A DNA stretch of 64,000 nucleotides from a virus (taxonomy: Duplodnaviria > Caudoviricetes). A program made the position numbers and the translations under genes. The notes below the pieces were generated by a model. That model did no database searches. It saw nothing but the letters and a program-made list of their open reading frames with translations, and was not told the origin of the DNA. The stretch's first letter is position 1. Each line of letters opens with the position of its first letter. This document shows positions 2,585 through 64,000 of this stretch, piece by piece. The stretch covers positions 850 through 64,849 of the IMG/VR virus record IMGVR_UViG_3300012096_000007, one strand, 5' to 3'.

Positions 2585-2681
2585 TTTGTGCTCCTGTTTA
2601 CAAACTAAGGGGCCAGCTTTTTAAGACTGACCCCTGCTGAAAGGCTATCGCGTAAAGCGAGCAATCCAATCGCCTTCCAAA

Positions 2682-3254
2682 TTAGGTGTTAGCAAGAACC
2701 GTTGGGTTATTAAGAATAGCTGTGTTTGGGCCAGCAAGCGAACCGGTCGCTTGGCTGATAACCATACCAGTGATGCTAAAACCGCTACCAGTACCGGGGG
2801 ATGTCGAGAATAAAGCACCAGCAGTTGCTGCAACGCTGAAAAGCGCGGCATTTGCTGTAGTGGAAGCCAAAGTACGGACATTTGGGCAGTTACCAAATAC
2901 CTGAGTCCAGAAAAAGGTAGCTGTTTGTGGAGCAGCCGGAGCAGGAACAAGCATGCTGCCCTGTGAACCACCAACGATACCAACAAATGCACCGACGTTT
3001 GAACCAGCAGTCGCGCCACCAGTTAAAGCAACAGACCAAGAACCGGGAACAACACTTACCACAACAGCTGAACCAGCTGGGATGCTTACCGAAGAAGTAC
3101 AATAAACCCACTCTGAACCATCTGTACCCCAAGCCAACTGACCAGTTGCAAATGGAGGACGAGGAATTTCAGGGGTACCAACAGCATTCAGAATGAAGAC
3201 TGCATTGATATCAACGCCTTCCATGTTAGAAGTATTATAAAGGGCGGCTGCCAT
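2682..3254 (-). CDS. Virion structural protein (capsid cement/decoration-like)
   Basis: 190 aa, G/A/S/T-rich, WGTDGSEWVY motif, own RBS, followed by a hairpin. Confidence 0.6.
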   Translation of the reverse strand: MAAALYNTSNMEGVDINAVFILNAVGTPEIPRPPFATGQLAWGTDGSEWVYCTSSVSIPAGSAVVVSVVPGSWSVALTGGATAGSNVGAFVGIVGGSQGSMLVPAPAAPQTATFFWTQVFGNCPNVRTLASTTANAALFSVAATAGALFSTSPGTGSGFSITGMVISQATGSLAGPNTAILNNPTVLANT

Positions 3255-23846: not shown

Positions 23847-24155
23847 ATGACAGACATAAGAGAATACACCATAATTTTGGATGATGTTATGCAAAAGTGG
23901 CTTGGAGAATTTAAGACCCTTGAACCATTGGATTATCGAATGCTGGCCATACTGCTTGATGACCCCATGAGTGTAAAGGAAGAAGGCATACGATTCGTGG
24001 TTGACATCAACAAGCCTGAAATTCAACGAAAACTGGACATGCTGAATGGACCCTACTTTAACACCATCATGAAAATGCTAGAACTAAGGATGTACAATGA
24101 AGACAGTAAGCGTAACAGCAAGGGAATTGAAAATAGCTGCCGAACATTGGTATGA
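23847..24155 (+). CDS. GPH-motif family protein
   Basis: KLDMLNGPYFNTIMKM. Confidence 0.65.
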   Translation: MTDIREYTIILDDVMQKWLGEFKTLEPLDYRMLAILLDDPMSVKEEGIRFVVDINKPEIQRKLDMLNGPYFNTIMKMLELRMYNEDSKRNSKGIENSCRTLV

Positions 24156-24366
24156 GCTTCACGGGTTAAAATCTATCTCAATGTGGCATTACCTGGAATA
24201 CCTTGGTGAAAAAGATCAAGCTGAAAAACTAAAAACAGCTATGTGGGGAAGAGCTGCATGGGACATTGAAGTATCTGAAGAGTCAGCCCGCAAAATCAAA
24301 GCGCTCAATGGGCCACACTACAAAACCCTGTTGGCCATCTATAAAGCCCAGAACATGATTAAGTAA
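24097..24366 (+). CDS. GPH-motif family protein
   Basis: KIKALNGPHYKTLLAIY. Confidence 0.65.
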   Translation: MKTVSVTARELKIAAEHWYELHGLKSISMWHYLEYLGEKDQAEKLKTAMWGRAAWDIEVSEESARKIKALNGPHYKTLLAIYKAQNMIK

Positions 24367-24371
24367 GCAAA

Positions 24372-24701
24372 ATGAAACAACCTAAGCAAGACCCCGGTGT
24401 AGAAATAGACAGTAGCAAATACTTCAGGGCACAATCACATTGGGTTGCCTTTTGGAGACAACAAGACCTAAACATACCAAGCTTTGGCAATTTCCTTGGC
24501 TTGACAAAAGGTGTCGTCATTCACGGACGAAAACATACAATGATGCTCAGAGCCAGCGCTGTAAGAAAAGTAGAAAAACTAGCAAGCCCATACTGGTACG
24601 CCATCCTCAAAGCCTATCAAGTCAGGCACTCCCGCACCAAACAAGAACGTGAATTCGATGACAATGACAGAAAAACAAATGACATTCATAGACGCGTTTG
24701 A
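24372..24701 (+). CDS. GPH-motif family protein
   Basis: KVEKLASPYWYAILKAY. Confidence 0.65.
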   Translation: MKQPKQDPGVEIDSSKYFRAQSHWVAFWRQQDLNIPSFGNFLGLTKGVVIHGRKHTMMLRASAVRKVEKLASPYWYAILKAYQVRHSRTKQEREFDDNDRKTNDIHRRV

Positions 24702-24909
24702 GTTCATTGATGCTGTGACAGCTTGGTACACCTACAAGCATGATGACCCCAGCAAACGCTTCATGGATTATCTAGGCATTCACCACTATAGCACCTACGC
24801 CGATAGATTCCTGATGCCGGAACACGCTGCCCATAAACTCAGGATGCTTCTATCCCCTCACGCACAAACTATCATCAGGATGTATTATGCAAAACAGACC
24901 AAAACCTGA
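24658..24909 (+). CDS. GPH-motif family protein
   Basis: KLRMLLSPHAQTIIRMY. Confidence 0.65.
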   Translation: MTMTEKQMTFIDAFEFIDAVTAWYTYKHDDPSKRFMDYLGIHHYSTYADRFLMPEHAAHKLRMLLSPHAQTIIRMYYAKQTKT

Positions 24910-25165
24910 CATTCATATTCCCAACAACAAAATGCAGCAGTCGTATTACAACTGGTGCCAAATCCCCATTGTTAACAAAAAGGAGGACTGGGCGATGTAT
25001 TGGGATTATGTTGGAGCCTACAAACAATCAAATGAAGGTAGATGGATACTGACCCAAGATGGCGCACGCTGAGTTGACTACCTGCTAGGCCCGCATGCTG
25101 AAACCATGGTGATGGCATGGTTCAAAACCAATAAACCGAAAATCAAACGATTCAAATTCAAATGA
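24887..25165 (+). pseudogene. GPH-motif family gene interrupted by an in-frame TGA at 25070-25072
   Basis: Frame continues after the stop as VDYLLGPHAETMVMAW. Confidence 0.6.
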
Positions 25166-25593
25166 GAGATATCATCAACATCAAAAATCTATGCATCAGC
25201 TGGCGCAGCTATGCCAGCCCCAGCTTTTTCTACTATCACCGCTATCATATTCATCACCAGAATGGAGACGATTACTTCCTGTTCATAGGCCCGTTACAGT
25301 TCAGATGGTGGAAAATGAAAGACTACAGCCGCATGATCAGCCGCCTAGATTATTTCAAGGCGATGGAAACCTATAACAAGATGGCTGAGAAGCTAAGGCT
25401 GGAAGCACCTGACTTCAGATTGTTCGTATCCCCTGTGCCCAAGGTAGACCGCCAACCCATACCGTTCAGGGCAATCTCAGAATCAGAACTGATTGAACTG
25501 ACCCCAGAAGGATACCAGCATTACAAGATGCTATCCAACCAACATGCCACCACCTTGTTAGCAGTATGGATCATCAAACATGCAAATCACTAG
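25162..25593 (+). CDS. GPH-motif family protein (divergent)
   Basis: HYKMLSNQHATTLLAVW. Confidence 0.55.
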   Translation: MRDIINIKNLCISWRSYASPSFFYYHRYHIHHQNGDDYFLFIGPLQFRWWKMKDYSRMISRLDYFKAMETYNKMAEKLRLEAPDFRLFVSPVPKVDRQPIPFRAISESELIELTPEGYQHYKMLSNQHATTLLAVWIIKHANH

Positions 25594-25855
25594 GGTTGAA
25601 TTGCGGGTAGCTTCTGACAAATACTGGAGGACGGTATTCAAGCTGCCATGGTATTTGCAGAAAGTGTGTCCTGCTTTCAAGGAGTATTTGGCACCGGACA
25701 AATACCCGTATTTGTACCAGAGGGATCAGGTTGAACTATCCATCAAAGGGGTGCAGCGCTATCAAAACCTGTTCTCACCCCATGTCGTCACCTTGCTAAC
25801 CATGTATGCCTTGCAGCGGATAGAAGCTTCCACAGGAGAAATCCAAGATGAATGA
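25580..25855 (+). CDS. GPH-motif family protein
   Basis: RYQNLFSPHVVTLLTMY. Confidence 0.65.
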   Translation: MQITRVELRVASDKYWRTVFKLPWYLQKVCPAFKEYLAPDKYPYLYQRDQVELSIKGVQRYQNLFSPHVVTLLTMYALQRIEASTGEIQDE

Positions 25856-26027
25856 TCATCAGCATGTGTGGGCCGAAACAGGCAAGCAAGCCAAACACGT
25901 GGAAGGAAGCCTGTTCAAGTACGGGACACCTGTTGTGACCTATGTCTTATGTGTAGTCTGTGGACAAACAGGCTATACCAGACCACCTAGCAAGATCATT
26001 TATACGTGGAAGCTTCCTGAGAAGTAG
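25848..26027 (+). CDS. Small protein with HxW and CxxC motifs
   Basis: MNDHQHVWAETG...CVVCGQTG; AGGAG RBS. Confidence 0.5.
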   Translation: MNDHQHVWAETGKQAKHVEGSLFKYGTPVVTYVLCVVCGQTGYTRPPSKIIYTWKLPEK

Positions 26028-26245
26028 TCTGATTTTTTCATATCTATCCTATAGGGAAGATAGAAGCTTCTTTGTATCCGTGGAAGTATCGAGATTTTTT
26101 ACTATATATTGCAGGGGAAGGTAAGAAGCTTCAACTATCCATAGAAGTAACCTAAATAATTAATATGTATCCCACGGGGAGAATTCATATTTTTATCATC
26201 CGTGGAAGCATCCTAGAAAAATCGACTGCATACCATGGGTACATT
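26021..26245. repeat. Degenerate ~61-bp tandem repeat (about 3.5 units)
   Basis: GAAG(T/C)A units at 26021, 26083, 26144 and 26205. Confidence 0.6.
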
Positions 26246-26714
26246 ATGCCCTTAACAGGGGGGAGGGGGTACCATTTTGTCATCCTGTGACAAAATCAGC
26301 TTTGTCAGTCAAGTAATATAGTCACCTGACTTCCACTGGTAAGCAACTCACCTGACTAACTCACCGGACGAAGACAACTAATACAAACAACAAAACAAAT
26401 CACTTGAGTTGGTCAAGGATGATATTCACCTTGGCGTGCATACTGGTAACATACACGTGACACAAATTTGTATAATTATTTGTATTATTTTTGTTTGCAT
26501 CATTAACATGCCACAATTGAATACTATGTTTGCATTGTTGACCGGGCCATATAGGCGCGGTGGTTCACCACTTAGGCCTTGCGGCCCAAACGCAAGGTGC
26601 GGCCCAAAAAGCCATAGCAACCTGAGCGCGCCCTAGCCAAGGCCTTTGATGGCCAGTGCTACGCAATGGGTAAATCAGCCACCCTATGAGGCTGATATTT
26701 GAAGGGTCAAAACT

Positions 26715-27317
26715 ATGTCAAATACAAACGCAAATGATGCAAGTGCACTTTACCCGCTGTTTTTCAAAAAATGGCAACCGGCTGGCATGGCCAAGCTGTT
26801 AGGCCCCAAACCTACAGCTGATCAGCTGGCCAAGGTGCACGCGTTGGGGCCACGCCATGGCAAACAATGCTTTATCATTGCCATGTCACTGCGTGACTGT
26901 GGCGTGACCCCCGCGCAAATGGTGCTGATCACTGGTACCAAGCACCTCAACAAAATGGGTGACTTGACCACTGACGCCTACTTGCGTGAGGTGCTGATGC
27001 CGCAAGTTGACAGCATGAAATGCTACAAGCGTGTAATCACCCCCAAAGGTGAGCAGCGCATTGAGCGGTTTGTTAAGGCACAAGCCGCTGCGGTGGCAGC
27101 GGGTGAGGCTGAAGTGGTCAAGGCACCCAAGGTGAAGGCGGCAGCAAAAAAGCGCACCAGCGCACCGCGCAAGCCCAAGGCAACGGTTGCTGAGCCGCAG
27201 CCGCACGTGACACCGGTACCGGCCAATGAAATGCCTAACACTGACAAGGTGGTTAGCATTGAAATTGACCACCATGACAATGACGGCACAACGCCGTTGC
27301 CCGTCAATCAGCTGTAA
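26715..27317 (+). CDS. DUF3489-like DNA-binding protein with K/A-rich tail
   Basis: GKQCFIIAMSLRDCGVTPAQMVLITG. Confidence 0.55.
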   Translation: MSNTNANDASALYPLFFKKWQPAGMAKLLGPKPTADQLAKVHALGPRHGKQCFIIAMSLRDCGVTPAQMVLITGTKHLNKMGDLTTDAYLREVLMPQVDSMKCYKRVITPKGEQRIERFVKAQAAAVAAGEAEVVKAPKVKAAAKKRTSAPRKPKATVAEPQPHVTPVPANEMPNTDKVVSIEIDHHDNDGTTPLPVNQL

Positions 27318-27368
27318 CTTCACAATGGCCGGGCGCAAATGCCCGGCCAAACTTTTGAGGTTACGGTC

Positions 27369-27683
27369 ATGAATGATGAACAATGGCAATATTGGCAAGG
27401 CCTATGGTTTAGGGCTTGGCAACTCATGCCACGGCATAGCGCAACCATGCTGTGCAAGCTGCTAGGTTACAGCGTGGCCAAGCCACCTAAGCTGATCAAT
27501 AGGTTTAATGGTAAAGCCTATTATGCCAGCAATGGCGCCAATAGCCGCATATACAGCAATTACAGGCGTGGCAGTAAGCCACGCTTGCCGGGCCAGCAAC
27601 GTTTACTAAAAATGCTGGCTGGGCCTCACGGTGAAACAGTTGCTAAGGCAATTGCCTTGCAACGCGGGTTTGAATTCAAGTAA
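27369..27683 (+). CDS. GPH-motif family protein
   Basis: RLLKMLAGPHGETVAKA. Confidence 0.65.
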   Translation: MNDEQWQYWQGLWFRAWQLMPRHSATMLCKLLGYSVAKPPKLINRFNGKAYYASNGANSRIYSNYRRGSKPRLPGQQRLLKMLAGPHGETVAKAIALQRGFEFK

Positions 27684-27771
27684 GGGCAGGCAAAATGCAA
27701 CATGACGCACACGTTACCAGCTGGCGCAACTGGCTGGCTGATTTAGTCAAAGCGTTGCGTAAATGAAATTG

Positions 27772-27805
27772 AACGGGCAGGGTCAAACCTTGCCCGTTTT
27801 ATTTT
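27772..27805 (+). terminator. Rho-independent terminator
   Basis: AACGGGCAGGG/CCTTGCCCGTT stem plus T-tract. Confidence 0.8.
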
Positions 27806-28080
27806 GCCCAGCTGAATTCGTCTTCTACGCTGTCTTATTCTTGCTTCCATTTAAACTGTGAAGAAGACTATTGGTGCAAAGAAGACTATACCTAGGAAGA
27901 AACTCATCTGGACGAAATGGCTCATCTGTCGAAGAAGTATAATTTTAAGACGACGACTTAATTCGCACTCATATTAATCCTCCTCCTCATCTGTCGAAGA
28001 AATCATTGTTATCTTCGTCGTATCCTTCGTTTCCCATGTCGGTAACCTATTCCATTGGTCTTATTAAGTCCCTATATGGC

Positions 28081-28545
28081 TCATCCAGCATCCACCAAAC
28101 TCAATTTGTTTGCAGATGCATCCACTGCATCAGTTATCTTCCTATAATAATGCTTCCTCTTGATACATTGAATCTTGTGCTTAGTAATCTTATACTTCTT
28201 GGCAATACTAGAATAATCATTTAGATCAAGATAAATGCTTTTCACTACCTCATCTGGCAACCTCATCCAACCTTTGGTACTGACTGACTCACGTCGTCTA
28301 TTATAACGCGTGGTATTTTCCTCAATAGTGATAGCTTTTACATTTCCACGCCTATATGAACCTTGATCACGATTGCGGGCCATTACATATTGTCCCTTCT
28401 TGCATCCACGCTTCTCAAGCAAATTTTCACCTAATTGCTCTACCCACCATTGACACCAATCTTCATATTCAAATTGAAATTTAATCCCACGATTCTTGGC
28501 AGTGTGCTTCTGGCCATCATAAGCAGTCTTTGATCTTGAACTCAT
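28081..28545 (-). CDS. HNH-like endonuclease
   Basis: RGIKFQFEYEDWCQWW...YVMARNRDQGSYRRGNV. Confidence 0.7.
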   Translation of the reverse strand: MSSRSKTAYDGQKHTAKNRGIKFQFEYEDWCQWWVEQLGENLLEKRGCKKGQYVMARNRDQGSYRRGNVKAITIEENTTRYNRRRESVSTKGWMRLPDEVVKSIYLDLNDYSSIAKKYKITKHKIQCIKRKHYYRKITDAVDASANKLSLVDAG

Positions 28546-28647
28546 TTCATCCTCACATTTTCGACTTCCACATATTATACACTTCCACCTTGAAAATCAT
28601 TTGTGGGTTAGGCCATAATAATCATTTCAGGGTTAAGGGTCTGTTTC

Positions 28648-38206: not shown

Positions 38207-39079
38207 ATGAGTGGCAATTTAGCAGAACGTGCAATGCTAGTGACACTGCGCATATCATCTTGGGCAGGGATGATGCTTGACAAGGAAATCACTGAAGATG
38301 TCAATCAAAGCTATAAGGCAGAAAAAGAAGCTGGGCGCTATAACAAGCGCCTCGTCGCTTCCAGCTTCCTCAGTGGTGTTTCACAAGCCCATTCCAAAGC
38401 TCGCAAAACCCACAAGCTTCTTACATTACCGTGGGAATATGACGGCACTGGGATTTTGGCCAGTGCTGGCTATATCAACTATGTAGGCTTGATGAAGGAA
38501 TGCCGCCAGCAAACAGAGACTGAAGTCAAGCAGTTTCTGACCATGCGGGATGATTACATCAAGGAAGCTTCGGTGCGCCTCGGCAAAATGTTTGATGCCG
38601 ATGATTACCCCAGCAATGATGAAATCAAGGAGAAGTTCGACTTTGACGTGGAAATCAAAGCAGTGCCTGAGGCCAATGATTTCCGTGTCACCCTTGGTGA
38701 TGAAGCCGTCAAAGCAATCATCAAGGGTATTCAGACCCGCACCAATCAGCGGCTCCAAAATGCCATGGATGACATCTTCAAACGGATTGAAGAACTGGTC
38801 AAGCACATGGTCGAACGGCTGCGCGCTTATCAACCTGAAGCAGGCAAGCGGACGGATACTGTCATCCGGGATTCTATCGTACAGAACATCCTTGAACTAA
38901 CCAAGGTATTGCCCATCCTTAATATCACTAATGACCCGCGCATCATTGAGCTAGAAAAGCGGTTAACCGCTGATCTGGTAACATCACCTGTGATGCTGCG
39001 CACCGATGCCAAACTGAGGGCAGTTACCATCAGCAAGGCCGACGCCATCCTCAAAAAAGTCCAGAGTTACATGAAATGA
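38207..39079 (+). CDS. DUF3150-like phage protein
   Basis: AMLVTLRISSW, TLPW, FDADDYP, LNITNDP; upstream of the AAA and vWA genes. Confidence 0.6.
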   Translation: MSGNLAERAMLVTLRISSWAGMMLDKEITEDVNQSYKAEKEAGRYNKRLVASSFLSGVSQAHSKARKTHKLLTLPWEYDGTGILASAGYINYVGLMKECRQQTETEVKQFLTMRDDYIKEASVRLGKMFDADDYPSNDEIKEKFDFDVEIKAVPEANDFRVTLGDEAVKAIIKGIQTRTNQRLQNAMDDIFKRIEELVKHMVERLRAYQPEAGKRTDTVIRDSIVQNILELTKVLPILNITNDPRIIELEKRLTADLVTSPVMLRTDAKLRAVTISKADAILKKVQSYMK

Positions 39080-39345: not shown

Positions 39346-40395
39346 ATGTCTAAAACTCAAACTACAACTGGGGTCACAGCAGTTCGCACTGAAACAATTG
39401 AAGGTGCGAAAGAGCTGGCCCGGTATTACAGGCAAGAAGATATTCCTCTTTACTTACACGGTGCCCCCGGCGTCGGCAAATCAGACATCATGCATCAACT
39501 AGCTGATGAAGACAAAGATGAAGGCAAAAGTGGCTTCATTGATGTCCGTGTCAGCACCATGTTGCCTGAGGACCTGACAGGTATCCCCGTGCCTGACCTT
39601 GAAAACCGTGTCGCCGTTTGGCTCAGGGCTACCTTTTGGCCTGAAGAAAAACGTGATGGTAAGCGGGGCATCATTGCATTTGACGAACTCAGTGATGCAC
39701 CACGTAACCTGCAATCATGCATCTACCGTGTGATTTTGGATCGCCAAATTGGCGACTTCAAACTGCCATCCGGCTGGTGGCCTATGGCGGCAGGCAACCG
39801 CAGGGAAGACCGTGCAGCAGCACAGTCTATTTCCAGCGCACTAGCCAACCGATTTGCCCACATTCACATTCGGCCTGATCATGAGGCTTGGCTGCGTTGG
39901 GCCAATCTCAACAACATCAATCCTCTATTGATAGGGTACATCAAATGGAGGCCTGATATGATCCACAACATGAGCGGTGCTGACCTACTAGCATTCCCAA
40001 CAGCACGTTCTTGGACACAAGCTTCCAAAGTATTTGGCAAGGAAGGCAGCCTGCGGTTTAGATTGCTATCCGGTATCGTAGGTGAAGGAGCGGCGACAGA
40101 CGTAGAGACCTTCTTCACCGCGTTAAACCTGCCTGACTTTGAAGACGTCATCAAGGATCCCATGAGCACCTTGATTCCTGAAGAACCAGCTTCACGGTTT
40201 GCATTAAGCTCGTTGCTGGCAAGAAACATGACATCTGACAACATGGTCCAAATCATGAAATACATCAACCGGGATGCCTTTGGTGCTGACTTTGGCACTG
40301 TTGTCATCTTGGACGCCACCAAGCGAGATCAATCACTGTGTGAAACACAGGCGTTCATCAAATGGGCACGAACCAACAAGACTTTGCGCATCTAA
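39346..40395 (+). CDS. MoxR-like AAA+ ATPase
   Basis: GAPGVGKS, IIAFDE, AAGN, ALANRF, PTARSW. Confidence 0.85.
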   Translation: MSKTQTTTGVTAVRTETIEGAKELARYYRQEDIPLYLHGAPGVGKSDIMHQLADEDKDEGKSGFIDVRVSTMLPEDLTGIPVPDLENRVAVWLRATFWPEEKRDGKRGIIAFDELSDAPRNLQSCIYRVILDRQIGDFKLPSGWWPMAAGNRREDRAAAQSISSALANRFAHIHIRPDHEAWLRWANLNNINPLLIGYIKWRPDMIHNMSGADLLAFPTARSWTQASKVFGKEGSLRFRLLSGIVGEGAATDVETFFTALNLPDFEDVIKDPMSTLIPEEPASRFALSSLLARNMTSDNMVQIMKYINRDAFGADFGTVVILDATKRDQSLCETQAFIKWARTNKTLRI

Positions 40396-40415
40396 TCAAC
40401 AGGAGGAGGAGAACA

Positions 40416-40781
40416 TTGAAACCATTTACTAAAAATGATCGAAAACAACTAGTTGAAGACCTCAACTATTTGTCAGACATCTTAGAAAACATCATGAAAA
40501 TCACAGAACAACTAACACCCGCTGACAAGATAGACGTGGCAGCCCGATTTAGGGCTGCTCACAAAACCATTGAAAAATTTGACAAAGATGTAAAAACCTA
40601 TGTCAAAGATCATCTCAGGCACGCTGCAGGCGAAGTACCCGGCTATCAATTCAAAGCTGTGCTACAGATCGTCCCCACTAATCGGCTTGATCAAGAAGCC
40701 TTGAAGATCGACAAACCTGCAATAGTCGCCGCATACATGAAGCCAAGTGACGATGAACGTGTGAGTTACGAAATACGCTAG
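40416..40781 (+). CDS. Hypothetical protein
   Basis: TTG start after AACAGGAGGAG. Confidence 0.6.
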   Translation: MKPFTKNDRKQLVEDLNYLSDILENIMKITEQLTPADKIDVAARFRAAHKTIEKFDKDVKTYVKDHLRHAAGEVPGYQFKAVLQIVPTNRLDQEALKIDKPAIVAAYMKPSDDERVSYEIR

Positions 40782-40946
40782 TGTTGCTTCAAGAAATGCC
40801 AATGTCCCTGTAAGCCGTCACTTCAGGCAGTCCTGCTTCGCAGGCTGGCTTACTGAAAGCGTAGGGGATCGGCTGGAGCACGTTTTTGACCTACCTCTAC
40901 TCCAGCCTCATTTCTTGGTGAAGCACTACGCTTCAAACAGGAGGAG
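40779..40946 (+). ncRNA. Cassette element with enclosed structured RNA (R12)
   Basis: CAAGAAATG/CATTTCTTG closing stem, several inner helices. Confidence 0.55.
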
Positions 40947-40949
40947 AAT

Positions 40950-42143
40950 ATGAAAATCAAAGATCGTGAGGCGCATGATTCCATCATCCACGCCCGCACC
41001 AATCTATTGGTCAGCAATGGCTTCTTTGGCTTTCTGGCCATGCAATTGCGGTTGATTGAAGACTACAACATGCCTACGGCTGCGGTAGATGGTATATCAC
41101 TGTTCTACAATCCTGATTTCGTCAATCAACTAGACGACAGGCAATGTGAATTCCTGATATGCCATGAAGTCATGCACTGTTGCCTGAAACACTTCTCAAG
41201 ACGGCAAGGACGACAAATCAAGCCGTGGAATGCAGCTTGTGACTTTGTAATCAATTTGGACTTGAAGGATTCAGGCTTCACCTTGATCCACGATGTCATG
41301 ATCAGCGGCAAAAACTTCCAATGCTGTATTGATGAAAAATACAGAGGTATGACCTCTGAAGAGATCTATGATTCGTTCCCCAAAGTTGAAATTAACTTCT
41401 ATATATCTGGGGATGGATCAGAATGGGACATTGGTGGTGTCATTGATGCACCAAATGGCCAAACAGGTGAAGAGCAAGCCAAACACACTTGGGATAAAGC
41501 CGTACGATCAGCCATAGCTGTTATGAAAGCTAGTGGTATTGGCAGCGTTCCCGGCATCCTACGTCACCTGATTGGTGAATTGAATAGACCAAAAGTTTCA
41601 TGGAAAGATCTGACATGGAACTTCATTGATCAATCCATGTCCAAGGAACCATCTTGGGCACGGATCAGCCGACGCAGCGTAGCCATGGGTACCCTATTAC
41701 CCGGCGTCATATCTGACCGGCTCAATCATCTAGTGTTTGCCGTGGATGATTCTGGCAGCATCAACGATAAAATGTTCAAAGAAATGCTCAGTGAAGTAGC
41801 TGGCTCTTTGGATCAAGGTACTGCTGATCAATTGACTGTCATCTATGCTGATACCCGTGCCCATGATATTTTCCATTACGTGATGGGCGACATTGTGAAG
41901 CCAGAACCTTTAAAAGGTGGAGGAGGTGGTACTGCTTTCAGTGATACCTTCAAATACATCAGTGAAAATATCCCCGATGCCAGCTGCATCATCTACCTCA
42001 CCGACCTTGATGTTTATGATTTTGGTGACGACCCCGGTATTCCAACCTTATGGGCGGTATACACCCATGAAAGCCAATTTCCACAGCTGGCCGAAAAAGT
42101 ACCGTTTGGGGTTCCCATCCATGTCTCAACAAGCATAAGCTAA
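40950..42143 (+). CDS. Metallopeptidase-vWA protein (DUF2201-like)
   Basis: HEVMH, WNAACDFVIN, VDDSGSI (MIDAS), GGGGTAF, YLTD. Confidence 0.85.
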   Translation: MKIKDREAHDSIIHARTNLLVSNGFFGFLAMQLRLIEDYNMPTAAVDGISLFYNPDFVNQLDDRQCEFLICHEVMHCCLKHFSRRQGRQIKPWNAACDFVINLDLKDSGFTLIHDVMISGKNFQCCIDEKYRGMTSEEIYDSFPKVEINFYISGDGSEWDIGGVIDAPNGQTGEEQAKHTWDKAVRSAIAVMKASGIGSVPGILRHLIGELNRPKVSWKDLTWNFIDQSMSKEPSWARISRRSVAMGTLLPGVISDRLNHLVFAVDDSGSINDKMFKEMLSEVAGSLDQGTADQLTVIYADTRAHDIFHYVMGDIVKPEPLKGGGGGTAFSDTFKYISENIPDASCIIYLTDLDVYDFGDDPGIPTLWAVYTHESQFPQLAEKVPFGVPIHVSTSIS

Positions 42144-42861: not shown

Positions 42862-43400
42862 TGACTGCGGGAAAATCAAAAGCGCATTATCAAGCATCGA
42901 TGAAAGCACTTGCAGCGGCAGAACTTTCGTTCAAAACTGGAATACATGCAACTGCCGCTGCCAAAACACTTGGATCATCAAGATCAGCAGCTACTTACGC
43001 ACGGCTCATTCTTGAGTTTGGATCTGATCAAGATATCGATGATGCACGTACTGGTAAAACTGGCTTACGGACCTTGGCTGACAAGATAAGGCCAACCCTG
43101 ACAGCTGAAATTAGGAAGGAGCTTAAAAAACGTACTGGAGGAAAATTCAGCGAAGGTCATCTTCACAACCTCAAAACTGAAAAAGATCTTTGGGTCAAAT
43201 TGAAAGTAGTCTTAGAGAACCTTTCTGAGTTACCTCATCCTAAGGAAATGATCCCAGTTGTGAAAAGCAATAACATGCGAGCACGAGCTATTCGCTTGCA
43301 CTTACACAACGCAACCAAATGGATAGAGGATTTCAACAATGAGTGGAAGCGATCTGAAGAGGATACTTCTAACACCGGAGGAAGCAACGAGGCTGCTTGA
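42861..43400 (+). CDS. Hypothetical protein, possible HTH
   Basis: AAAKTLGSSRSAATYAR. Confidence 0.55.
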   Translation: MTAGKSKAHYQASMKALAAAELSFKTGIHATAAAKTLGSSRSAATYARLILEFGSDQDIDDARTGKTGLRTLADKIRPTLTAEIRKELKKRTGGKFSEGHLHNLKTEKDLWVKLKVVLENLSELPHPKEMIPVVKSNNMRARAIRLHLHNATKWIEDFNNEWKRSEEDTSNTGGSNEAA

Positions 43401-44169
43401 ATACAATACACTCAATCGGCCTTTAAATGACCAACACGTCAAACGTCTTGCTACTCAAATCATCGATGGCAAATGGCGTTTCAATGGAGATACCATCAAG
43501 TTTTCAGCCAAAGGTGAAATTTTAGATGGCCAACACCGTTTATGGGCTGTTGTAGAAGCAAAAATCGCTATTGAAACAATCATAGTGCGTGGCGTTGAAA
43601 AAGATGCCTTTGCTACCATTGATACCCTACGCAAACCACGTTCCGGCGCTGACATTTTAGCCCTCAATGGAGCAACCAAGCATCGAGCCATCACATCCGC
43701 CGCCCTTCAATGGCTACTACGTTGGCAGCGTGGTGTGCTTGAAAAATATGCGGCTCCCATCAACCGCATTGAAAATTCAGACATTGAAATAGCCTTTGAA
43801 AACAACCCCGGCATAGAACGGGCCGTAAGCCGTGTGATGGGATTACGTGGGTTAGCCAACCCATCATTGGTTGGATTTTTCTATTACATTCTAACCAACC
43901 GTTCACCAGAGCTTGCAGAGCGAATGGTTTTCACACTAGAAAACCCAGCAGGTGTTACCATCAATGATCCGTTCTTCAGACTCAGAATGTACTTCAGTTC
44001 AGACAAAGTAAAACGCAAAGACCCAGTGGTGACAATAGCTTTAATGATCAAGGCGGCAAATGCCGCCTACCACGGTACAGAAGTCAGAATGCTGAATTGG
44101 CGAAATCAAGGTGACCGGCCTGAACCATTTCCAAAACTTGAAGTATCTAGTTCAGGTAATGCCATTTAA
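43339..44169 (+). CDS. ParB-like N-terminal domain protein
   Basis: NRPLN, NGDTIKF, LDGQHRLWAVV. Confidence 0.75.
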   Translation: MSGSDLKRILLTPEEATRLLEYNTLNRPLNDQHVKRLATQIIDGKWRFNGDTIKFSAKGEILDGQHRLWAVVEAKIAIETIIVRGVEKDAFATIDTLRKPRSGADILALNGATKHRAITSAALQWLLRWQRGVLEKYAAPINRIENSDIEIAFENNPGIERAVSRVMGLRGLANPSLVGFFYYILTNRSPELAERMVFTLENPAGVTINDPFFRLRMYFSSDKVKRKDPVVTIALMIKAANAAYHGTEVRMLNWRNQGDRPEPFPKLEVSSSGNAI

Positions 44170-46494: not shown

Positions 46495-46887
46495 ATGCGT
46501 TATCATGCCTCAAAGGAGTGGCGCGAGCTATGGAGGGATGCGCTGCTCAATATGCCAGCAATGGCCATCATTCCAAGACGAGAACGAATCGTTAAGAGTG
46601 CCATAAATGGATTGACCATGACATGGTATCGCTCTGGTTACCACCGTGGTGCCGCTATAGCTCTGCGGCTCTGCCTTGGATACCACACTTATAATGCGCA
46701 AGGCCGTAGCAATGCGGCGGGCTGTATTTACATGGCCATACAGCGCGGTAGCGCGCCCCGTGGTGCGGCTAGGCAAAGGTTGCTTAGGGTACTGGCTGGG
46801 CCGCATGGCGCTACCCTTGCCCGCGCTAGGCTCATACAGCTAGGGCAGGCTGACCGTTTCAAATTTTGGCCCAAACCGGGCCAGTAG
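46495..46887 (+). CDS. GPH-motif family protein (closest to 27369-27683)
   Basis: RLLRVLAGPHGATLARA. Confidence 0.65.
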   Translation: MRYHASKEWRELWRDALLNMPAMAIIPRRERIVKSAINGLTMTWYRSGYHRGAAIALRLCLGYHTYNAQGRSNAAGCIYMAIQRGSAPRGAARQRLLRVLAGPHGATLARARLIQLGQADRFKFWPKPGQ

Positions 46888-49944: not shown

Positions 49945-50247
49945 ATGAGAATCAATAAAGAGGGGAAAAGTGCACAAGAACTGGGTCGCGTCCGTGCCTT
50001 AAGGCATTATTATCGTAAAAGGACAGAACTACGAAATATATTAGGCGGTAAATGCGTCATTTGTGGTTCAGATTCTAATTTAGAATTTCATCATAAAGAC
50101 CCAAATATAAAAGAATTTGATATTACAAGAAGGTATACTCAACCAACGGCAAAGTTATTAACTGAATTACAAAAATGTGAACTTAGATGTGAAGAATGTC
50201 ATAAACGAATCCATAGGCTGTTAGGAATAGCCAATGCCTCTAACTAA
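49945..50247 (+). CDS. HNH endonuclease
   Basis: GGKCVICG...LEFHHKDP...CELRCEECH. Confidence 0.8.
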   Translation: MRINKEGKSAQELGRVRALRHYYRKRTELRNILGGKCVICGSDSNLEFHHKDPNIKEFDITRRYTQPTAKLLTELQKCELRCEECHKRIHRLLGIANASN

Positions 50248-50707
50248 AGATCAAATATTGGGGGCGCTTCCTAATCTGAGCCAAGCTGACCTAGCAATGG
50301 TGCATGCCATGTCAGGCCAGTTATTGGCCCCAACACAAGGCATGAGTGATACTAAACAGGTTTTGTTTGACGCACTGGCAGCCACCATAAGCCACCCTAT
50401 GCCCTATTCAAACATGCCCACTAACCTTGCCAGTCAGTTTGAAAGGCATTTTCCTGATTTACTGCTTTTTTTTGATAAACATTTCAAAGGCTGGGATAGC
50501 AACAAAATTGTTCAAACAGGTTTTTTAAGAATGATATTCAGTTTGATAGCTGATGACCTTAAACGACATGGGGTAACCCCATCCATAGGAATGCTGGTGC
50601 ACAACCTGCCCCGTATATATGAAATAGTGGACAATGCTTTCCCCAACTATTTGAAAAACAATATGGGGCATATGATCCTGAAAATATTCAGCAAAAGGAA
50701 TGCGTAG
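50234..50707 (+). CDS. Hypothetical protein upstream of the helicase
   Basis: 157 aa ORF. Confidence 0.55.
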   Translation: MPLTKDQILGALPNLSQADLAMVHAMSGQLLAPTQGMSDTKQVLFDALAATISHPMPYSNMPTNLASQFERHFPDLLLFFDKHFKGWDSNKIVQTGFLRMIFSLIADDLKRHGVTPSIGMLVHNLPRIYEIVDNAFPNYLKNNMGHMILKIFSKRNA

Positions 50708-62836: not shown

Positions 62837-64000
62837 GTGAGTTTTTTCTTCACCAAGGAACAAGCCAAACCTGCAAGACGTGGAGGCACACCGGCCAAGC
62901 TAACACAGGCCGGTCAAGCGTCTAAAGACAGCCTTAACCGACTAGGCTGCAAGGCATGCCCTTTAGATAAAGTTGATAATCACACGCCAAAGATGGCACC
63001 TGTTTTACCTGATCAAGCCAATATCTACTTCTTAGGAGATCAACCTAATCATGAAGATGATGAAAAAGGGAAGCCGTTTTCGAGTGCAGCTGGAAAAATC
63101 CTTGTTCGAGTGCTTCGCGATGTTAGTGATGATGTTGATGGTATTGGGTTTGATAACGTTATTAGGGATTACGGGAGCCATTTTACTGAATCACTTCGAC
63201 CCGACTGGGTCCCCATGGAATGTTGTCGGTCACTCATAATCAGCTCCATTGAACAAGCCAAACCCAAAATCATAGTAGGGCTTGGCATCTTGCCGTTGCA
63301 ATGGATGCTGAAAAGCAGTGACATGATAGGCCTGAGAGGGCGTGTCTTTGCCGTACAAGTAGGGTCTCATAAATGCTGGTTTTTGCCTACCTACCATCCT
63401 CAATACATCATTGATACCGCCTATGATGACGCCCAGCCACTTCGTAGCAAACTAGGGCATTGCCTCAAATTTGACGTAGCGCGAGCCGTTTCACTGACAA
63501 ATACCCTGCCAACCCCCACAATTGACACGCCACAAGCGGCTAGGGCAGGCATACAGCGCTTTAATGGCACGCCCCGTACCATGCTAAGCGCTTTACTAAA
63601 GCTTATCAGTGAAGCCCGCAAGGCACCTGAAAAAGCCATTGATTTAGAGACCAGCCACTTGCGACCCTATGGCAAGGACGCCAAAGTCTTGACCGTAGCT
63701 ATCAGTTTTGGAGATACCAACTTCGCCTTTGCTTTAGATCACCCTAAATCAGGGTGGTCAGATATTGACAAGGATACGATCAAATTGGGCTTGATGGATT
63801 TGCTTTCAGATGAAACCACCATCATTGCCCACAATGCTCCTTTTGAATGTGAATGGTTGATTTTTTTATTAGGCAAAGATGTCATTTGGCACGACAATTG
63901 GGAATGCACTATGATGCAGGCCCATTTCCTTGATGAACGACGAGGCAAGCGTGGCGGCAATGATGAACAATTCCAGCCCAACCCGTACCAAGCTTTGGAC
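62837..64000 (+). CDS. DNA polymerase with N-terminal family-4 UDG-like domain and 3'-5' exonuclease, partial
   Basis: GTG start; CKACPL, GKPFSSAAG, KPKIIVGLG, PTYHP; then AIDLET (ExoI) and AHNAPFE (ExoII); open to window end. Confidence 0.85.
   Translation, partial: MSFFFTKEQAKPARRGGTPAKLTQAGQASKDSLNRLGCKACPLDKVDNHTPKMAPVLPDQANIYFLGDQPNHEDDEKGKPFSSAAGKILVRVLRDVSDDVDGIGFDNVIRDYGSHFTESLRPDWVPMECCRSLIISSIEQAKPKIIVGLGILPLQWMLKSSDMIGLRGRVFAVQVGSHKCWFLPTYHPQYIIDTAYDDAQPLRSKLGHCLKFDVARAVSLTNTLPTPTIDTPQAARAGIQRFNGTPRTMLSALLKLISEARKAPEKAIDLETSHLRPYGKDAKVLTVAISFGDTNFAFALDHPKSGWSDIDKDTIKLGLMDLLSDETTIIAHNAPFECEWLIFLLGKDVIWHDNWECTMMQAHFLDERRGKRGGNDEQFQPNPYQALD

What the first reader, a model, noticed from the sequence alone, without database searches (positions are those of the whole stretch)
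26420..27817. 1.4-kb island with no AGA/CGA/GGA/TCT/TCG/TCC: every GA is TGA and every TC is TCA
Seen: reading base by base I found no VGA or TCB trinucleotide between 26420 and 27817. Six of 64 triplets would give on the order of 100 or more by chance, and they are abundant elsewhere. The island spans a whole transcription unit (leader, DUF3489-like gene, GPH gene, 23-codon ORF at 27695-27766, terminator), so codons are constrained: Asp/Glu only after T-ending codons, no TCY/TCG Ser. Inference: the phage modifies a base in TC(not A)/GA context genome-wide and keeps this first-expressed unit modification-free so host RNA polymerase can read it. Alternatively it evades a host enzyme with a very short target (DarT-like ADP-ribosyltransferase or deaminase). 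The UDG-fused polymerase is compatible with modified pyrimidines; no enzyme clearly responsible is visible in this window.
Basis: partly seen in the sequence, partly recalled or inferred. Interest (0 to 1): 0.9.

Follow-up and report, generated by a model that had tools for sequence, protein, structure and literature searches.

The report
Phage early gene unit lacking VGA/TCB
One complete early gene unit of an uncultured soil phage, and of its relatives, has been kept by selection free of a three-letter DNA word on both strands, so some still unidentified factor that reads only three base pairs must act on this DNA.

Summary
Between window positions 26417 and 27818 there is no AGA, CGA, GGA, TCT, TCG or TCC. 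The window average would give about 90, and the next largest gap is 208 bp.

The island is one transcription unit:
- a sigma-70-type promoter;
- a covarying ~180-nt leader;
- a gene for a winged-helix protein with a basic tail;
- a small "GPH" gene and a 23-codon ORF;
- a terminator.

Selection acts at synonymous sites. Codon resampling expects 35 and 19 sites in the two genes and finds 0. All 23 of 23 Asp/Glu codons follow a T-ending codon.

The same six words are absent around the homologous gene in 6 of 8 viral contigs. They are also absent from the matched gene segment in 43 of 66 metagenome loci (35-87% protein identity). One locus has a word-free and a word-bearing copy in tandem.

The agent is not identified. 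No DpdA, TET/JBP or thymidylate-synthase-like gene was found, even in a complete relative. Palindrome statistics show no protective mark.

My best reading (about 0.35): a phage-borne, 3-bp-specific change to DNA that this host-polymerase-read unit must escape. A host enzyme attack and a self-avoiding DNA binder remain open.

This scan has already noted the same island in at least 7 related genomes.

The parts
26417..27818 (.). VGA/TCB-free island. 26417 is the last site before it (GGA) and 27818 the first after it (TCG).
   Evidence: 0 of the six words in 1398 bp, about 90 expected; GC 0.51 against 0.45 in the rest.
26503..26530 (+). Sigma-70-type promoter, TTAACA-N16-TATGTT.
   Evidence: 9 of 12 matches. 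At the same place L002, L003 and L039 have TTGACA-N17-TATGTT, followed by a conserved TGCATTGTTGAC box (read by eye).
26531..26714 (+). Conserved structured 5' leader, with an invariant CATATAGG hairpin loop at 26548 and boxes at 26562, 26630 and 26655.
   Evidence: 6 leaders, 46 predicted pairs, 21 of them with changes on both sides; 75-79% nucleotide identity to L009/L008, higher than the gene itself. No Rfam family matched.
26715..27317 (+). Gene for a 200-aa protein: winged-helix domain, long helix, then a disordered Lys/Ala/Pro-rich basic tail.
   Evidence: pLDDT about 90 for residues 11-120, below 50 in the tail. (MarR/Sso10a/ST1889/TFE-alpha-like, weak: E 0.02, Z 5.3); 47 homologs. No Pfam or PHROG hit.
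27339..27683 (+). 114-aa member of the phage's expanded small-protein family with a C-terminal L-x-x-L-A-G-P-H motif.
   Evidence: translation. No Pfam or PHROG hit. 0 sites against 18.8 expected.
27695..27766 (+). 23-codon ORF.
   Evidence: translation. Its first 44 nt are 89% identical to L002, inside that locus's island. Coding status not tested.
27771..27806 (+). Intrinsic terminator: 13-bp stem, 3-nt loop, T run.
27819..28080 (.). Word-dense spacer after the island, with two direct repeats (AGAAGACTAT at 27862 and 27880; CATCTGTCGAAGA at 27923 and 27988).
   Evidence: Density is 160 per kb in the first 200 bp. Across 26-28 non-redundant relatives the two 200-bp bins after the island average 96 and 105 per kb. 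Function unknown.
30882..32307 (+). Second, partly purged zone. It is mostly non-coding and conserved, and is interrupted by a PD-(D/E)XK-like ORF (31405-31842).
   Evidence: 2 sites in 30894-31361; no sense-strand VGA in 30882-31361 or 31671-32307; 77-87% nucleotide identity to L002/L003; the ORF is absent from L002.
46678..46886 (.). Word-free micro-island (208 bp) in the 3' half of a GPH-family paralog.
50275..50452 (.). Word-free micro-island (177 bp) at the 5' end of ORF 50234-50707.
   Evidence: The homologous gene of the complete relative G003 holds a 172-bp gap at 62890-63062.
63482..63646 (.). Word-free stretch (164 bp) between the UDG and exonuclease domains of the polymerase gene. 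It lies below my significance cut-off of 175 bp.

Best explanation
SHOWN. The island is a self-contained early transcription unit: a host-type sigma-70 promoter, a ~180-nt structured leader, a gene for a winged-helix DNA-binding protein with a linker-histone-like basic tail, a small GPH-family gene, a 23-codon ORF and an intrinsic terminator. Purifying selection keeps this unit free of the 3-bp word VGA (= TCB on the other strand), in both orientations, in this phage and across a diverged clade of uncultured soil phages.

INFERRED. The word is the target of a DNA-level factor that reads only about 3 bp. That factor makes DNA hard to use for transcription or regulation.

MY COMMITMENT. The factor travels with the phage clade itself. 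I think it most likely is an enzyme that changes a base at T-C-B / V-G-A after replication, so that the incoming genome carries the change everywhere except in this unit. Candidate writers are the conserved beta-class N6/N4 methyltransferase, the TauD-like dioxygenase, or an unrecognised enzyme. Unaided host RNA polymerase can then read this unit at once. Its abundant DNA-coating product, and perhaps the leader RNA, then make the rest of the genome usable.
For: Selection rather than chance or mutation:
- 0 sites against about 90 expected, and 0 against 35 and 19 under codon resampling.
- 23 of 23 Asp/Glu codons follow a T-ending codon.
- 0 dipeptides that would force the word, against 8.0 expected.
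- Ser is coded only by TCA/AGY; there is no CGA/AGA Arg and no GGA Gly.
- There is no excess of the deamination products TTB/VAA (ratio 0.90-1.17 in 5 of 6 islands), and island GC is above the rest in 6 of 6.

Conservation:
- The same three words and their complements are at 0 in the islands of 6 of 8 viral relatives, while TGA/TCA stay at 40-82.
- The matched gene segment has 0 sites in 43 of 66 metagenome loci and 2 or fewer in 52 of 66.
- 32 non-redundant loci have a gap of 500 bp or more.
- L080 has a word-free copy and a copy with 20 sites in tandem.

Unit boundaries: promoter and terminator; leader covariation.

DNA-level action on both strands: both orientations are purged inside coding sequence.

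One and the same word across relatives with GC 0.45-0.61, while ordinary palindromes such as GATC, GAATTC and GGCC remain in the island. This argues for one constant agent rather than varied host restriction systems, so I favour an agent carried by the phage.

Precedents in print for phage marks at such short words:
- T-dioxygenase 5mYOX97 prefers NTC (PMC13229309, section 8 read).
- Thymidine hypermodification at TG/TC (PMC6449724, passages).
- dPreQ0 at GA (PMC10484667, passages).

Candidate writers or helpers in the genome:
- the N6/N4 methyltransferase, 82% identical in the complete relative;
- a ParB/DndB-like protein;
- a TauD-like Fe/2OG dioxygenase with an H-x-D motif, 1.8 kb downstream of the island.
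Against: - No modified base has been observed. Only contigs of soil metagenomes were available.
- No TGT/DpdA, Tet_JBP or thymidylate-synthase-like gene was found in 5 of 5 records searched, one of them complete.
- The methyltransferase is equally present (82% identity) in G003, whose island is relaxed: 13 sites in the winged-helix part.
- The TauD-like gene is found only in the window's phage and in G001. It is absent from the syntenic region of the strict relatives G002 and G004, though those records are only 31-32% complete.
- 6-bp palindromes containing the word are avoided as much as the others (0.80 against 0.82), and GGATCC is itself avoided (19 against 43). So there is no sign that the word carries a protective mark. 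An earlier check in this scan priced the 'covalent mark' reading at 26/100 on the same kind of test.
- A methyl group alone is not known to stop bacterial RNA polymerase (my own knowledge).
- All other early and replication genes carry about 65 sites per kb and must still be expressed before replication.
Confidence: 0.35

Rival explanations
1. Attack from outside. A host or competing-element enzyme with a roughly 3-nt target damages incoming or replicating DNA at TCB/VGA. It could be a DarT-like ADP-ribosyltransferase, a deaminase, a nickase or a glycosylase. The first-expressed unit is site-free, as the first-step-transfer DNA of T5 must be. It can therefore still be transcribed and deliver a countermeasure, for example a DNA-coating protein.
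For: - T5/BF23 precedent: restriction-modification, CRISPR and Ssp systems restrict these phages only when their sites lie in the first-injected region (PMC10644984, passages).
- DarT2 modifies a T that precedes C, in TNTC (PMC11543638, passages).
- The product of the unit is a basic DNA binder, made from a strong host-type promoter.
- Relaxed islands in some lineages (G003, L057, L060, L069) would fit shifts to hosts that lack the agent.
- These phages do feel host restriction: GGGCCC 2 against 41, CCCGGG 4 against 59.
- In coding genes of 5 clade genomes all six words fall below synonymous-shuffle expectation, and TGA is the most over-represented of the 64 triplets (rank 63-64); two control phages differ.
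Against: - I know of no bacterial enzyme with VGA/TCB specificity, and found none in the papers read.
- DarT1 has no consensus target. The first T of the DarT2 motif matters little here: TNTCB 0.77 against VNTCB 0.85.
- The same word is purged across relatives of GC 0.45-0.61, although defence systems vary from strain to strain.
- The genome-wide signal is largely confounded by CpG depletion. CpG odds are 0.71-0.81 and TpG 1.22-1.35 in the clade. The non-CpG words reach only 0.73-0.98.
- An agent hitting 65 sites per kb elsewhere would have to be neutralised very fast.
- Mutational erosion by a deaminase is rejected.
Confidence: 0.25
2. Self-avoidance. The island's own product, or another phage DNA binder, coats or silences DNA that contains VGA/TCB, both host chromosome and most phage DNA. 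Its own gene, the leader, the second non-coding zone and a few internal sites are kept free of binding words so that they stay active.
For: - The trait travels with this one gene family in all relatives.
- The protein has a winged-helix fold with a long helix and a Lys/Ala/Pro-rich tail. The best structural neighbours include the archaeal chromatin proteins Sso10a and TrmBL2.
- The flanks of the island are word-dense: bin means of 80-105 per kb over the 400 bp on either side (80 in the 200 bp just upstream), against about 65-70 overall, n = 21-28 loci. They carry repeats.
- A word-free and a word-bearing paralog sit in tandem in L080.
- Conserved word-free micro-islands lie inside other genes.
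Against: - A 'not T' position in a 3-bp word is typical of base-flipping enzymes rather than of winged-helix recognition (my own knowledge).
- The structural matches are weak (Z 5.3, E 0.02).
- No binding data exist.
- Most phage genes carry the word at near-normal density and must still be expressed.
- The flank enrichment could simply reflect ribosome-binding-site-like and pyrimidine-rich intergenic sequence.
Confidence: 0.15
3. RNA-level avoidance. The transcript must escape an endoribonuclease or RNA-binding factor that reads VGA (or UCB). The loss of the complementary word is a by-product of RNA structure or of antisense transcription.
For: - The leader is a structured RNA.
- In the second zone only sense-strand VGA is strictly absent (30882-31361 and 31671-32307), while TCB is merely reduced. 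The orientation is the same in G001 and G002.
Against: - Inside the two coding sequences both VGA and TCB are at 0 on the sense strand. This cannot be a by-product of pairing.
- The promoter, upstream of the transcript, is purged too.
- Residual sites in partly relaxed homologs show no strand bias: 38 sense VGA against 32 sense TCB in 16 loci.
Confidence: 0.05
4. No function: the island is a chance or compositional effect, or a recent import from a donor with a different composition.
For: The island is richer in GC than the rest (0.51 against 0.45).
Against: - Probability about 1e-39 at the window density.
- 44 sites are expected even from the island's own dinucleotide content.
- The purge recurs at the orthologous unit in relatives down to 35% protein identity.
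- It requires coordinated synonymous choices.
Confidence: 0.01

Closest known systems
First-step-transfer (pre-early) DNA of T5/BF23 and, from my own recall, the leading region of T7 with gene 0.3
   Same: A first-expressed block, read by host RNA polymerase, whose freedom from target sites decides whether a DNA-targeting system can stop the phage. The rest of the genome carries the sites freely (PMC10644984, passages).
   Different: - Here the avoided target is one degenerate 3-bp word, about 65 occurrences per kb elsewhere, not assorted 4-8-bp sites.
- The purge is total, on both strands, and exactly one ~0.7-1.4-kb transcription unit long.
- Terminal position and staged injection are not shown. 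The 50-bp end repeat of G003 is only an assembly overlap.
- The agent is unknown.
Sequence-specific phage DNA base modifications at very short words: 5mYOX T-dioxygenases at NTC, 5hmdU-derived hypermodification at TG/TC, DpdA dPreQ0 at GA or GA/GGC
   Same: Post-replicative or context-dependent marks at 2-3-nt words that contain TC or GA, written by phage enzymes, some with ParB-like activators.
   Different: - None of the defining enzymes was found here.
- In phage iggy at least 97% of GA sites are modified, so TGA cannot be broadly exempt there, whereas here TGA/TCA is neutral.
- The passages and sections I read of those papers report no mark-free gene island.
DarT-type ADP-ribosylation of DNA bases (DarT2 at TNTC, DarT1 at G)
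   Same: A 3-4-nt target, a modified T that precedes C, lesions that block replication, and an anti-phage role (PMC11543638, passages).
   Different: - Little dependence on the upstream T.
- TCA is exempt here.
- No such host enzyme is known for these uncultured phages.
   Same: They show that virus enzymes can read a 3-nt word with one 'not X' position.
   Different: Different words, eukaryotic algal viruses, no site-free gene islands that I know of, and no homologous nickase seen here.
Linker histone H1 / archaeal Sso10a- and TrmBL2-type chromatin proteins (architecture of the island's protein only)
   Same: A winged-helix globular part plus a helix, followed by a long Lys/Ala/Pro-rich disordered tail.
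   Different: No sequence similarity. The structural matches are weak (Z 4-5). The function is untested.

Membership tests
T5-type first-step-transfer / leading-region site avoidance | The first-expressed block lacks the target sites that occur freely elsewhere in the genome. | tested here: met
   0 sites in 1398 bp against 64.5 per kb in the window. The same holds in 6 of 8 viral relatives.
T5-type first-step-transfer / leading-region site avoidance | The block lies at the genome end that enters first, with staged injection and a stop signal. | not testable with these tools
   The record is a fragment (70% complete). The end repeat of the complete relative is 50 bp, an assembly overlap. The repeats after the island are only suggestive.
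T5-type first-step-transfer / leading-region site avoidance | The block is transcribed by unmodified host RNA polymerase. | tested here: inconclusive
   A sigma-70-type promoter is present and conserved. No RNA data; no RNA holder was listed.
Phage 7-deazaguanine (DpdA) modification at GA | A TGT-family DpdA gene. | tested here: not met
   PF01702: 0 of 5 records at E <= 1, including the complete G003. The control search hit 14 of 14 reference genomes.
Phage 5mYOX (TET/JBP) thymine or 5mC dioxygenase pathway | A TET/JBP-family dioxygenase gene. | tested here: inconclusive
   PF12851: 0 of 5 records at E <= 1. However, PMC13229309 states that thousands of phage 5mYOX-like sequences lack this Pfam annotation (section 12). 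A TauD-family dioxygenase is present instead.
Phage 5mYOX (TET/JBP) thymine or 5mC dioxygenase pathway | A ParB-like activator next to the enzyme. | tested here: inconclusive
   ORF 43339-44169 carries a DGQHR-type motif. It gives weak DndB (E 0.013) and ParB-like PHROG (E 4e-4) hits. Its neighbours are not dioxygenase-like.
5hmdU-derived thymidine hypermodification (M6/ViI/phiW-14 type) | A thymidylate-synthase-like dUMP hydroxymethylase. | tested here: not met
   PF00303: 0 of 5 records at E <= 1.
DarT2 target avoidance | A four-base motif with T in first and third position (TNTC). | tested here: inconclusive
   Pooled coding genes of 5 clade genomes give TNTCB 0.77 against VNTCB 0.85 of shuffle expectation. 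The island lacks all TCB whatever lies upstream.
   No hit for the window's protein at E <= 0.1. 1 of 24 homologs hits at E 0.052.
Winged-helix DNA-binding proteins | A winged-helix fold. | tested here: inconclusive
   AlphaFold2 model with pLDDT about 90 over residues 11-120. Foldseek best match MarR-type at E 0.024. VIA best Z 5.3: ST1889 (rmsd 4.6 over 91 residues) and TFE-alpha (rmsd 6.3 over 95), then ArsR, Sso10a and TrmBL2 at lower Z.
Known RNA families (Rfam 15) for the leader and the second zone | A covariance-model match. | tested here: not met
   Window 25500-33000 at E <= 1 gave only one chance-level hit (rpsL_pseudo, 23 bits against a gathering score of 70), on the other strand.

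The most novel reading that the evidence does not exclude
An unrecognised enzyme, carried by a whole clade of ~90-100-kb soil phages, writes a new kind of post-replicative change on DNA at the 3-bp word TCB/VGA. Candidates are a TauD-type dioxygenase, the beta-class methyltransferase, or a protein with no family. The phage genome is organised around it. One early unit coding for a histone-H1-like protein, a ~1-kb non-coding RNA zone and a few internal sites are written without the word. They are therefore the only natively 'plain' DNA of the virus, a built-in two-state epigenome that times the infection.
Probability: 0.3. Interest if true: 0.9.

Novelty: new variant of a known kind. Interest (0 to 1): 0.8.

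Why it matters
A total purge of 6 of the 64 triplets from a complete gene unit, held over deep divergence, is a very clean evolutionary footprint. It implies a DNA-reading activity with a 3-bp specificity (V-G-A / T-C-B, with TGA/TCA exempt) that matches no enzyme I know or could find.

Whoever the agent is, the footprint gives its exact target in advance, whether it is a new phage DNA modification, a new host defence or a self-avoiding chromatin protein. It also supplies a natural negative control, the island, for nanopore, SMRT, LC-MS or binding experiments.

It extends the T5 principle ('only sites in the first-expressed DNA count') to an extreme case. It also points to an uncharacterised histone-H1-like early protein and a covarying leader RNA as key players of host take-over in an abundant group of uncultured soil phages.

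Tried and rejected
- Relatives among cultured phages: none. The island DNA (blastn) and the 200-aa protein (tblastn) have no match in 50,697 phage records. The capsid protein is only 25-53% identical to podoviruses of Bradyrhizobium, Myxococcus, Stenotrophomonas and Brucella.

- A single-protein scan of viral contigs found nothing. An alignment-based scan was needed.

The 97,659-bp contig that encodes the identical protein could therefore not be read.

- Genome contigs: 1 hit, on a 2.5-kb contig of a metagenome-assembled genome labelled Terracidiphilus. This is too short to name a host.

- Sequencing runs: 3 soil runs of 3 studies hold the stretch, as contigs only. One of them may be the source. 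No RNA holder was listed, and no raw reads were available, so there is no signal of modification or expression. Among the differences listed (further rows were not shown), none lies inside the island. X2 and X3 each cover it with one 2599-nt contig with 0 differences.

- Deaminase erosion was rejected. TTB/VAA are not enriched (0.90-1.17 in 5 of 6 islands, 1.49 in L009), and island GC is higher than the rest in 6 of 6.

- Genome-wide purge of the words. It looked strong at first, but the clade is CpG-depleted and TpG-rich. That alone explains the TCG/CGA lows and much of the TGA/TCA highs. I keep only a weak residue: AGA, GGA, TCT and TCC at 0.73-0.98.

- Protective-mark test with palindromes: no difference (0.80 for 10 palindromes with the word, 0.82 for 54 without). 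TCGA is the least avoided of the 16 4-bp palindromes (1.18), but it is a single case.

- GANTC: absent from the island, but only about 2.5 are expected there. It is under-represented genome-wide: 116 against 243.

- The methyltransferase is not close to any solved one: one hit at E 7.5e-4. Its target is unknown.

- TauD-like dioxygenase as the writer. It is present in the window's phage and in G001 and absent from the complete but relaxed G003, which is suggestive. But it is absent from the syntenic region of the strict G002 and G004, and only G001 turned up in viral contigs. Its 43 homologs could not be placed on contigs.

- A gene-content comparison (in the window's phage and G001 but not in G003) listed some 50 ORFs, too many to be informative.

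- The protein atlas gave no named family for the island protein (best score 0.86). It gave DUF3150 for ORF 38207-39079.

- Micro-islands and the main island share no significant sequence, so they are not repeats.

- Strand bias of residual sites in relaxed homologs: none, 38 against 32.

- Whole-record searches of metagenome loci were not possible; 4 of 5 handles were not held.

- Not used: complex prediction, the second structure job, the profile search of 1.84 billion representatives, and the third homolog search.

- Literature searches for anything like a word-free gene island or a VGA/TCB-specific agent found none. Supplementary files were not opened. The SI of PMC13229309 (NTN oligo data) and the supplementary tables of PMC6449724 could bear on the +1/+2 context of T modification.


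Full report
**1. The observation**

A script count over the window gives 0 AGA, CGA, GGA, TCT, TCG and TCC between 26420 and 27817. TGA occurs 46 times and TCA 24 times. The window as a whole holds 4131 such sites (64.5 per kb). The site-free gap runs from 26417 to 27818 (1401 bp), and the next largest of all gaps is 208 bp.

The per-kb table shows 46-90 sites in ordinary kilobases, 35 and 30 in the two that contain the island, and 16 in 31001-32000. Given the island's own mono- and dinucleotide content, 44 sites would still be expected, against 0 seen; TGA/TCA stand at 70 against 26 expected.

**2. What lies in the island**

Reading the sequence, the ORF list and the promoter/terminator scan gives one unit on the + strand:
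- a sigma-70-type promoter at 26503-26530 (TTAACA-N16-TATGTT);
- a 184-nt GC-rich leader;
- ORF 26715-27317 (200 aa);
- ORF 27339-27683 (114 aa, one of the phage's many small proteins ending in L-x-x-L-A-G-P-H);
- a 23-codon ORF at 27695-27766;
- a 13-bp-stem terminator at 27771-27799 with a T run.

The first site after the island (27818) lies 12 bp behind the T run. The last site before it (26417) lies 86 bp upstream of the promoter's first hexamer. The record is a 64,849-bp IMG/VR viral contig, 70% complete. It carries portal, terminase and capsid genes on the minus strand and early and replication genes on the plus strand.

**3. Selection at synonymous and amino-acid level**

I kept the two protein sequences and drew codons from the phage's own usage. 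This gives 35.0 +/- 5.1 sites (minimum 18 of 2000 trials) and 18.8 +/- 3.6 (minimum 8). The observed count is 0 and 0.
- All 23 of 23 Asp/Glu codons are preceded by a codon ending in T.
- Ser uses only TCA, AGC and AGT.
- Arg never uses CGA or AGA, and Gly never uses GGA.
- Dipeptides that would force the word whatever the codons ([KQEMW][DE], W[IMTNK]) are absent, against 8.0 expected. So the amino-acid sequence has also adapted.

The island is not the residue of C-to-T hypermutation. The products TTB/VAA are not enriched (0.90-1.17 in 5 of 6 islands, 1.49 in one), and island GC exceeds the rest in 6 of 6.

**4. Conservation**

The 200-aa protein has 47 homologs in the 5.8-billion-protein collection. 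An alignment-based scan found 8 viral contigs and 66 metagenome loci; some of these duplicate each other.
- In 6 of the 8 viral loci the gene sits in a gap of 768-1412 bp, or one running to the contig end. The other two (L005, L008) have 13 and 10 sites in about 340 bp, still about three-fold depleted.
- In every strict island exactly AGA, CGA, GGA and their complements are at 0, while TGA/TCA number 40-82.
- Among the 66 metagenome loci the matched gene segment has 0 sites in 43 and 2 or fewer in 52.
- 32 non-redundant loci have a gap of 500 bp or more.
- Three 'exceptions' (L078-L080) are a second paralog. L080 has a word-free copy (1563-2012, inside gap 1373-2073) followed by a copy with 20 sites (2565-3020).
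- Relatives range from 35 to 87% protein identity and from GC 0.45 to 0.61, so the purge is old and actively maintained.
- Identical island sequence occurs in contigs of three soil studies, one of which may be the source.

**5. Promoter, leader and protein**

Upstream regions of 20 loci, read by eye, show a conserved TTGACA-N17-TATGTT in L002, L003 and L039. It is followed by a TGCATTGTTGAC box and a leader with an invariant CATATAG(G) loop.

RNAalifold on 6 leaders predicts 46 pairs, 21 of them with compensatory changes. No Rfam family matches.

The protein model has a confident N-terminal 130 residues and a disordered Lys/Ala/Pro-rich tail. Fold searches give only weak winged-helix matches:
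- Foldseek: MarR-type at E 0.024;
- VIA: Z 5.3 for ST1889 and TFE-alpha, then ArsR, DnaD-N, TrmBL2 and Sso10a.

Pfam and PHROGs are silent. DUF3489 is hit by 1 of 24 homologs at E 0.052. The architecture, a winged helix plus a basic tail, resembles a linker histone. That is a resemblance only, not membership.

**6. Other purged places**

A second zone (30882-32307) is mostly non-coding. It is conserved at 77-87% with L002/L003, more than the neighbouring genes. It has only 2 sites in 30894-31361.

There, sense-strand VGA is strictly absent (30882-31361 and 31671-32307), while TCB is only reduced. The orientation is the same in G001 and G002. A PD-(D/E)XK-like ORF (31405-31842) is an insertion relative to L002.

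Significant micro-islands lie at 46678-46886 and 50275-50452. The latter recurs in the homologous gene of the complete relative G003, at 62890-63062. These places share no sequence with the main island.

**7. Looking for the agent**

It has precedents in print:
- a phage T-dioxygenase preferring NTC, and ParB-activated relatives (PMC13229309; outline, sections 8 and 12 read);
- thymidine hypermodification at TG/TC (PMC6449724, passages);
- dPreQ0 at GA (PMC10484667, passages).

But the defining genes are missing. TGT, Tet_JBP and thymidylate-synthase profiles hit 0 of 5 records, including the complete 93.5-kb G003.

What is present:
- a beta-class N6/N4 methyltransferase, 82% identical in G003 although G003's island is relaxed;
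- a ParB/DndB-like protein;
- a TauD-family dioxygenase 1.8 kb downstream, found only here and in G001;
- in G003, a Methyltransf_24 protein and a GcrA homolog.

A palindrome test gives no sign of protection by the word: 0.80 for 10 word-bearing 6-mers against 0.82 for 54 others, and GGATCC 19 against 43 expected. Meanwhile GGGCCC (2 against 41) shows real restriction pressure. An earlier check of this scan reached the same result on a related genome and priced the mark reading at 26/100.

**8. Genome-wide bias**

Against synonymous shuffles, all six words are under-represented in the coding genes of 5 clade genomes. TGA is the most over-represented of all 64 triplets, and two control phages behave differently.

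However, the clade is CpG-poor (odds 0.71-0.81) and TpG-rich (1.22-1.35), unlike the controls. This explains the TCG/CGA lows and much of the TGA/TCA highs. The non-CpG words reach only 0.73-0.98. Extended context matters little: TNTCB 0.77, VNTCB 0.85. I therefore treat a genome-wide cost of the word as weakly supported only.

**9. Reading**

Shown: a host-promoter-driven unit is kept free of a 3-bp word in both orientations by selection, across a clade.

Inferred: a DNA-level factor reads V-G-A / T-C-B. A T 5' of the G abolishes recognition, since TGA/TCA occurs at normal frequency even in the non-coding parts of the island (about 13 in 295 bp by my reading).

Ordinary palindromes are not avoided in the island, yet one and the same word is purged in relatives of very different GC. 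I therefore favour an agent that comes with the phage, a post-replicative change of its own DNA. I put this at about 0.35. The alternatives:
- an outside enzyme (T5-like logic; DarT-like, nickase or glycosylase), about 0.25;
- a self-avoiding DNA-coating protein, about 0.15;
- an RNA-level cause, about 0.05;
- the remainder for something not yet thought of.

None of these is demonstrated.

**10. Comparison, novelty and verdict**

The nearest known principle is the site-free first-step-transfer DNA of T5/BF23 (PMC10644984, passages). It differs in the nature of the target, in the completeness and sharp limits of the purge, and in the lack of evidence for terminal position.

My five literature searches turned up no report of a triplet-free gene unit or of a VGA/TCB-specific activity. 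Within this scan the same island has already been reported in at least 7 related genomes, with the same open question.

- the tandem word-free and word-bearing paralogs;
- the covarying leader;
- the conserved promoter;
- the strand asymmetry of the second zone;
- the CpG confound of the genome-wide signal;
- the rejection of deaminase erosion;
- the 2026 T-dioxygenase precedent;
- weak hints of an alphaproteobacterial-type host (GcrA homolog, capsid relatives, GANTC at 116 against 243).

Verdict: a real, strongly selected and unexplained feature. It is a new variant of target avoidance in first-expressed phage DNA, and may be the footprint of a new DNA-modifying or DNA-attacking activity.

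Noticed in passing
window 31405-31842: A 145-aa PD-(D/E)XK/NERD-like ORF (weak Pfam hits at E 8.6e-4; phrog_5018) sits inside the conserved non-coding second zone. It is absent at the same place in L002, like a mobile endonuclease gene inserted into a structured RNA gene.
   Followed up: partly
G003 36178-36630 (L095); window-wide GANTC counts: The complete relative encodes a GcrA cell-cycle-regulator homolog (E 6e-24). GANTC is two- to three-fold under-represented in all five clade records (window 116 against 243). The capsid protein's nearest cultured relatives infect Bradyrhizobium, Brucella, Rhizobium and Ruegeria. Together these are weak hints of an alphaproteobacterial-type host.
   Followed up: partly
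window and G001-G004, whole records: Very strong avoidance of GC-only palindromes (GGGCCC 2 against 41, CCCGGG 4 against 59, CCGCGG 2 against 21, pooled), and CpG depletion (odds 0.71-0.81) with TpG/CpA excess (1.22-1.35). Two control alphaproteobacterial phages differ.
   Followed up: partly
window 26258-26269; also L029, L059: A G-rich box (GGGGGGAGGGGG followed by ACCATTTT) about 160 bp upstream of the island recurs upstream of the island in diverged relatives. In several relatives the upstream flank is a pyrimidine-rich (TCC/TCT) tract. Function unknown.
   Followed up: no
window 27862-28000: Two pairs of direct repeats (AGAAGACTAT twice, CATCTGTCGAAGA twice) lie in the 260-bp spacer between the island's terminator and the end of the convergent gene 28081-28545. 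This is the most word-dense stretch nearby (160 per kb).
   Followed up: no
window 29634-30287: A short (217-aa) TauD/TfdA-family Fe(II)/2-oxoglutarate dioxygenase with an H-x-D motif sits among the early genes. It has 43 homologs of 44-86% identity in metagenomes. Among viral contigs only this clade (G001) has it.
   Followed up: partly
window 39346-42143: A MoxR-like AAA ATPase (phrog_1297) is followed by a DUF2201 metallopeptidase/VWA-like protein, conserved in G003. A further VWA protein lies at 58574-59197.
   Followed up: no
window 23847-30872, 46495-46887: About 15 small paralogs share the C-terminal L-x-x-L-x-G-P-H/Y motif, as another first-reader note also says. One lies inside the island, and the 3' half of another forms a word-free micro-island.
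   Followed up: partly
L080 1563-3020; L079 1-582: Some relatives carry the winged-helix gene twice in tandem: the first copy word-free, the second with normal word density. L079 shows a 582-bp word-free stretch at the contig start, ahead of the word-bearing copy; its content was not examined.
   Followed up: partly
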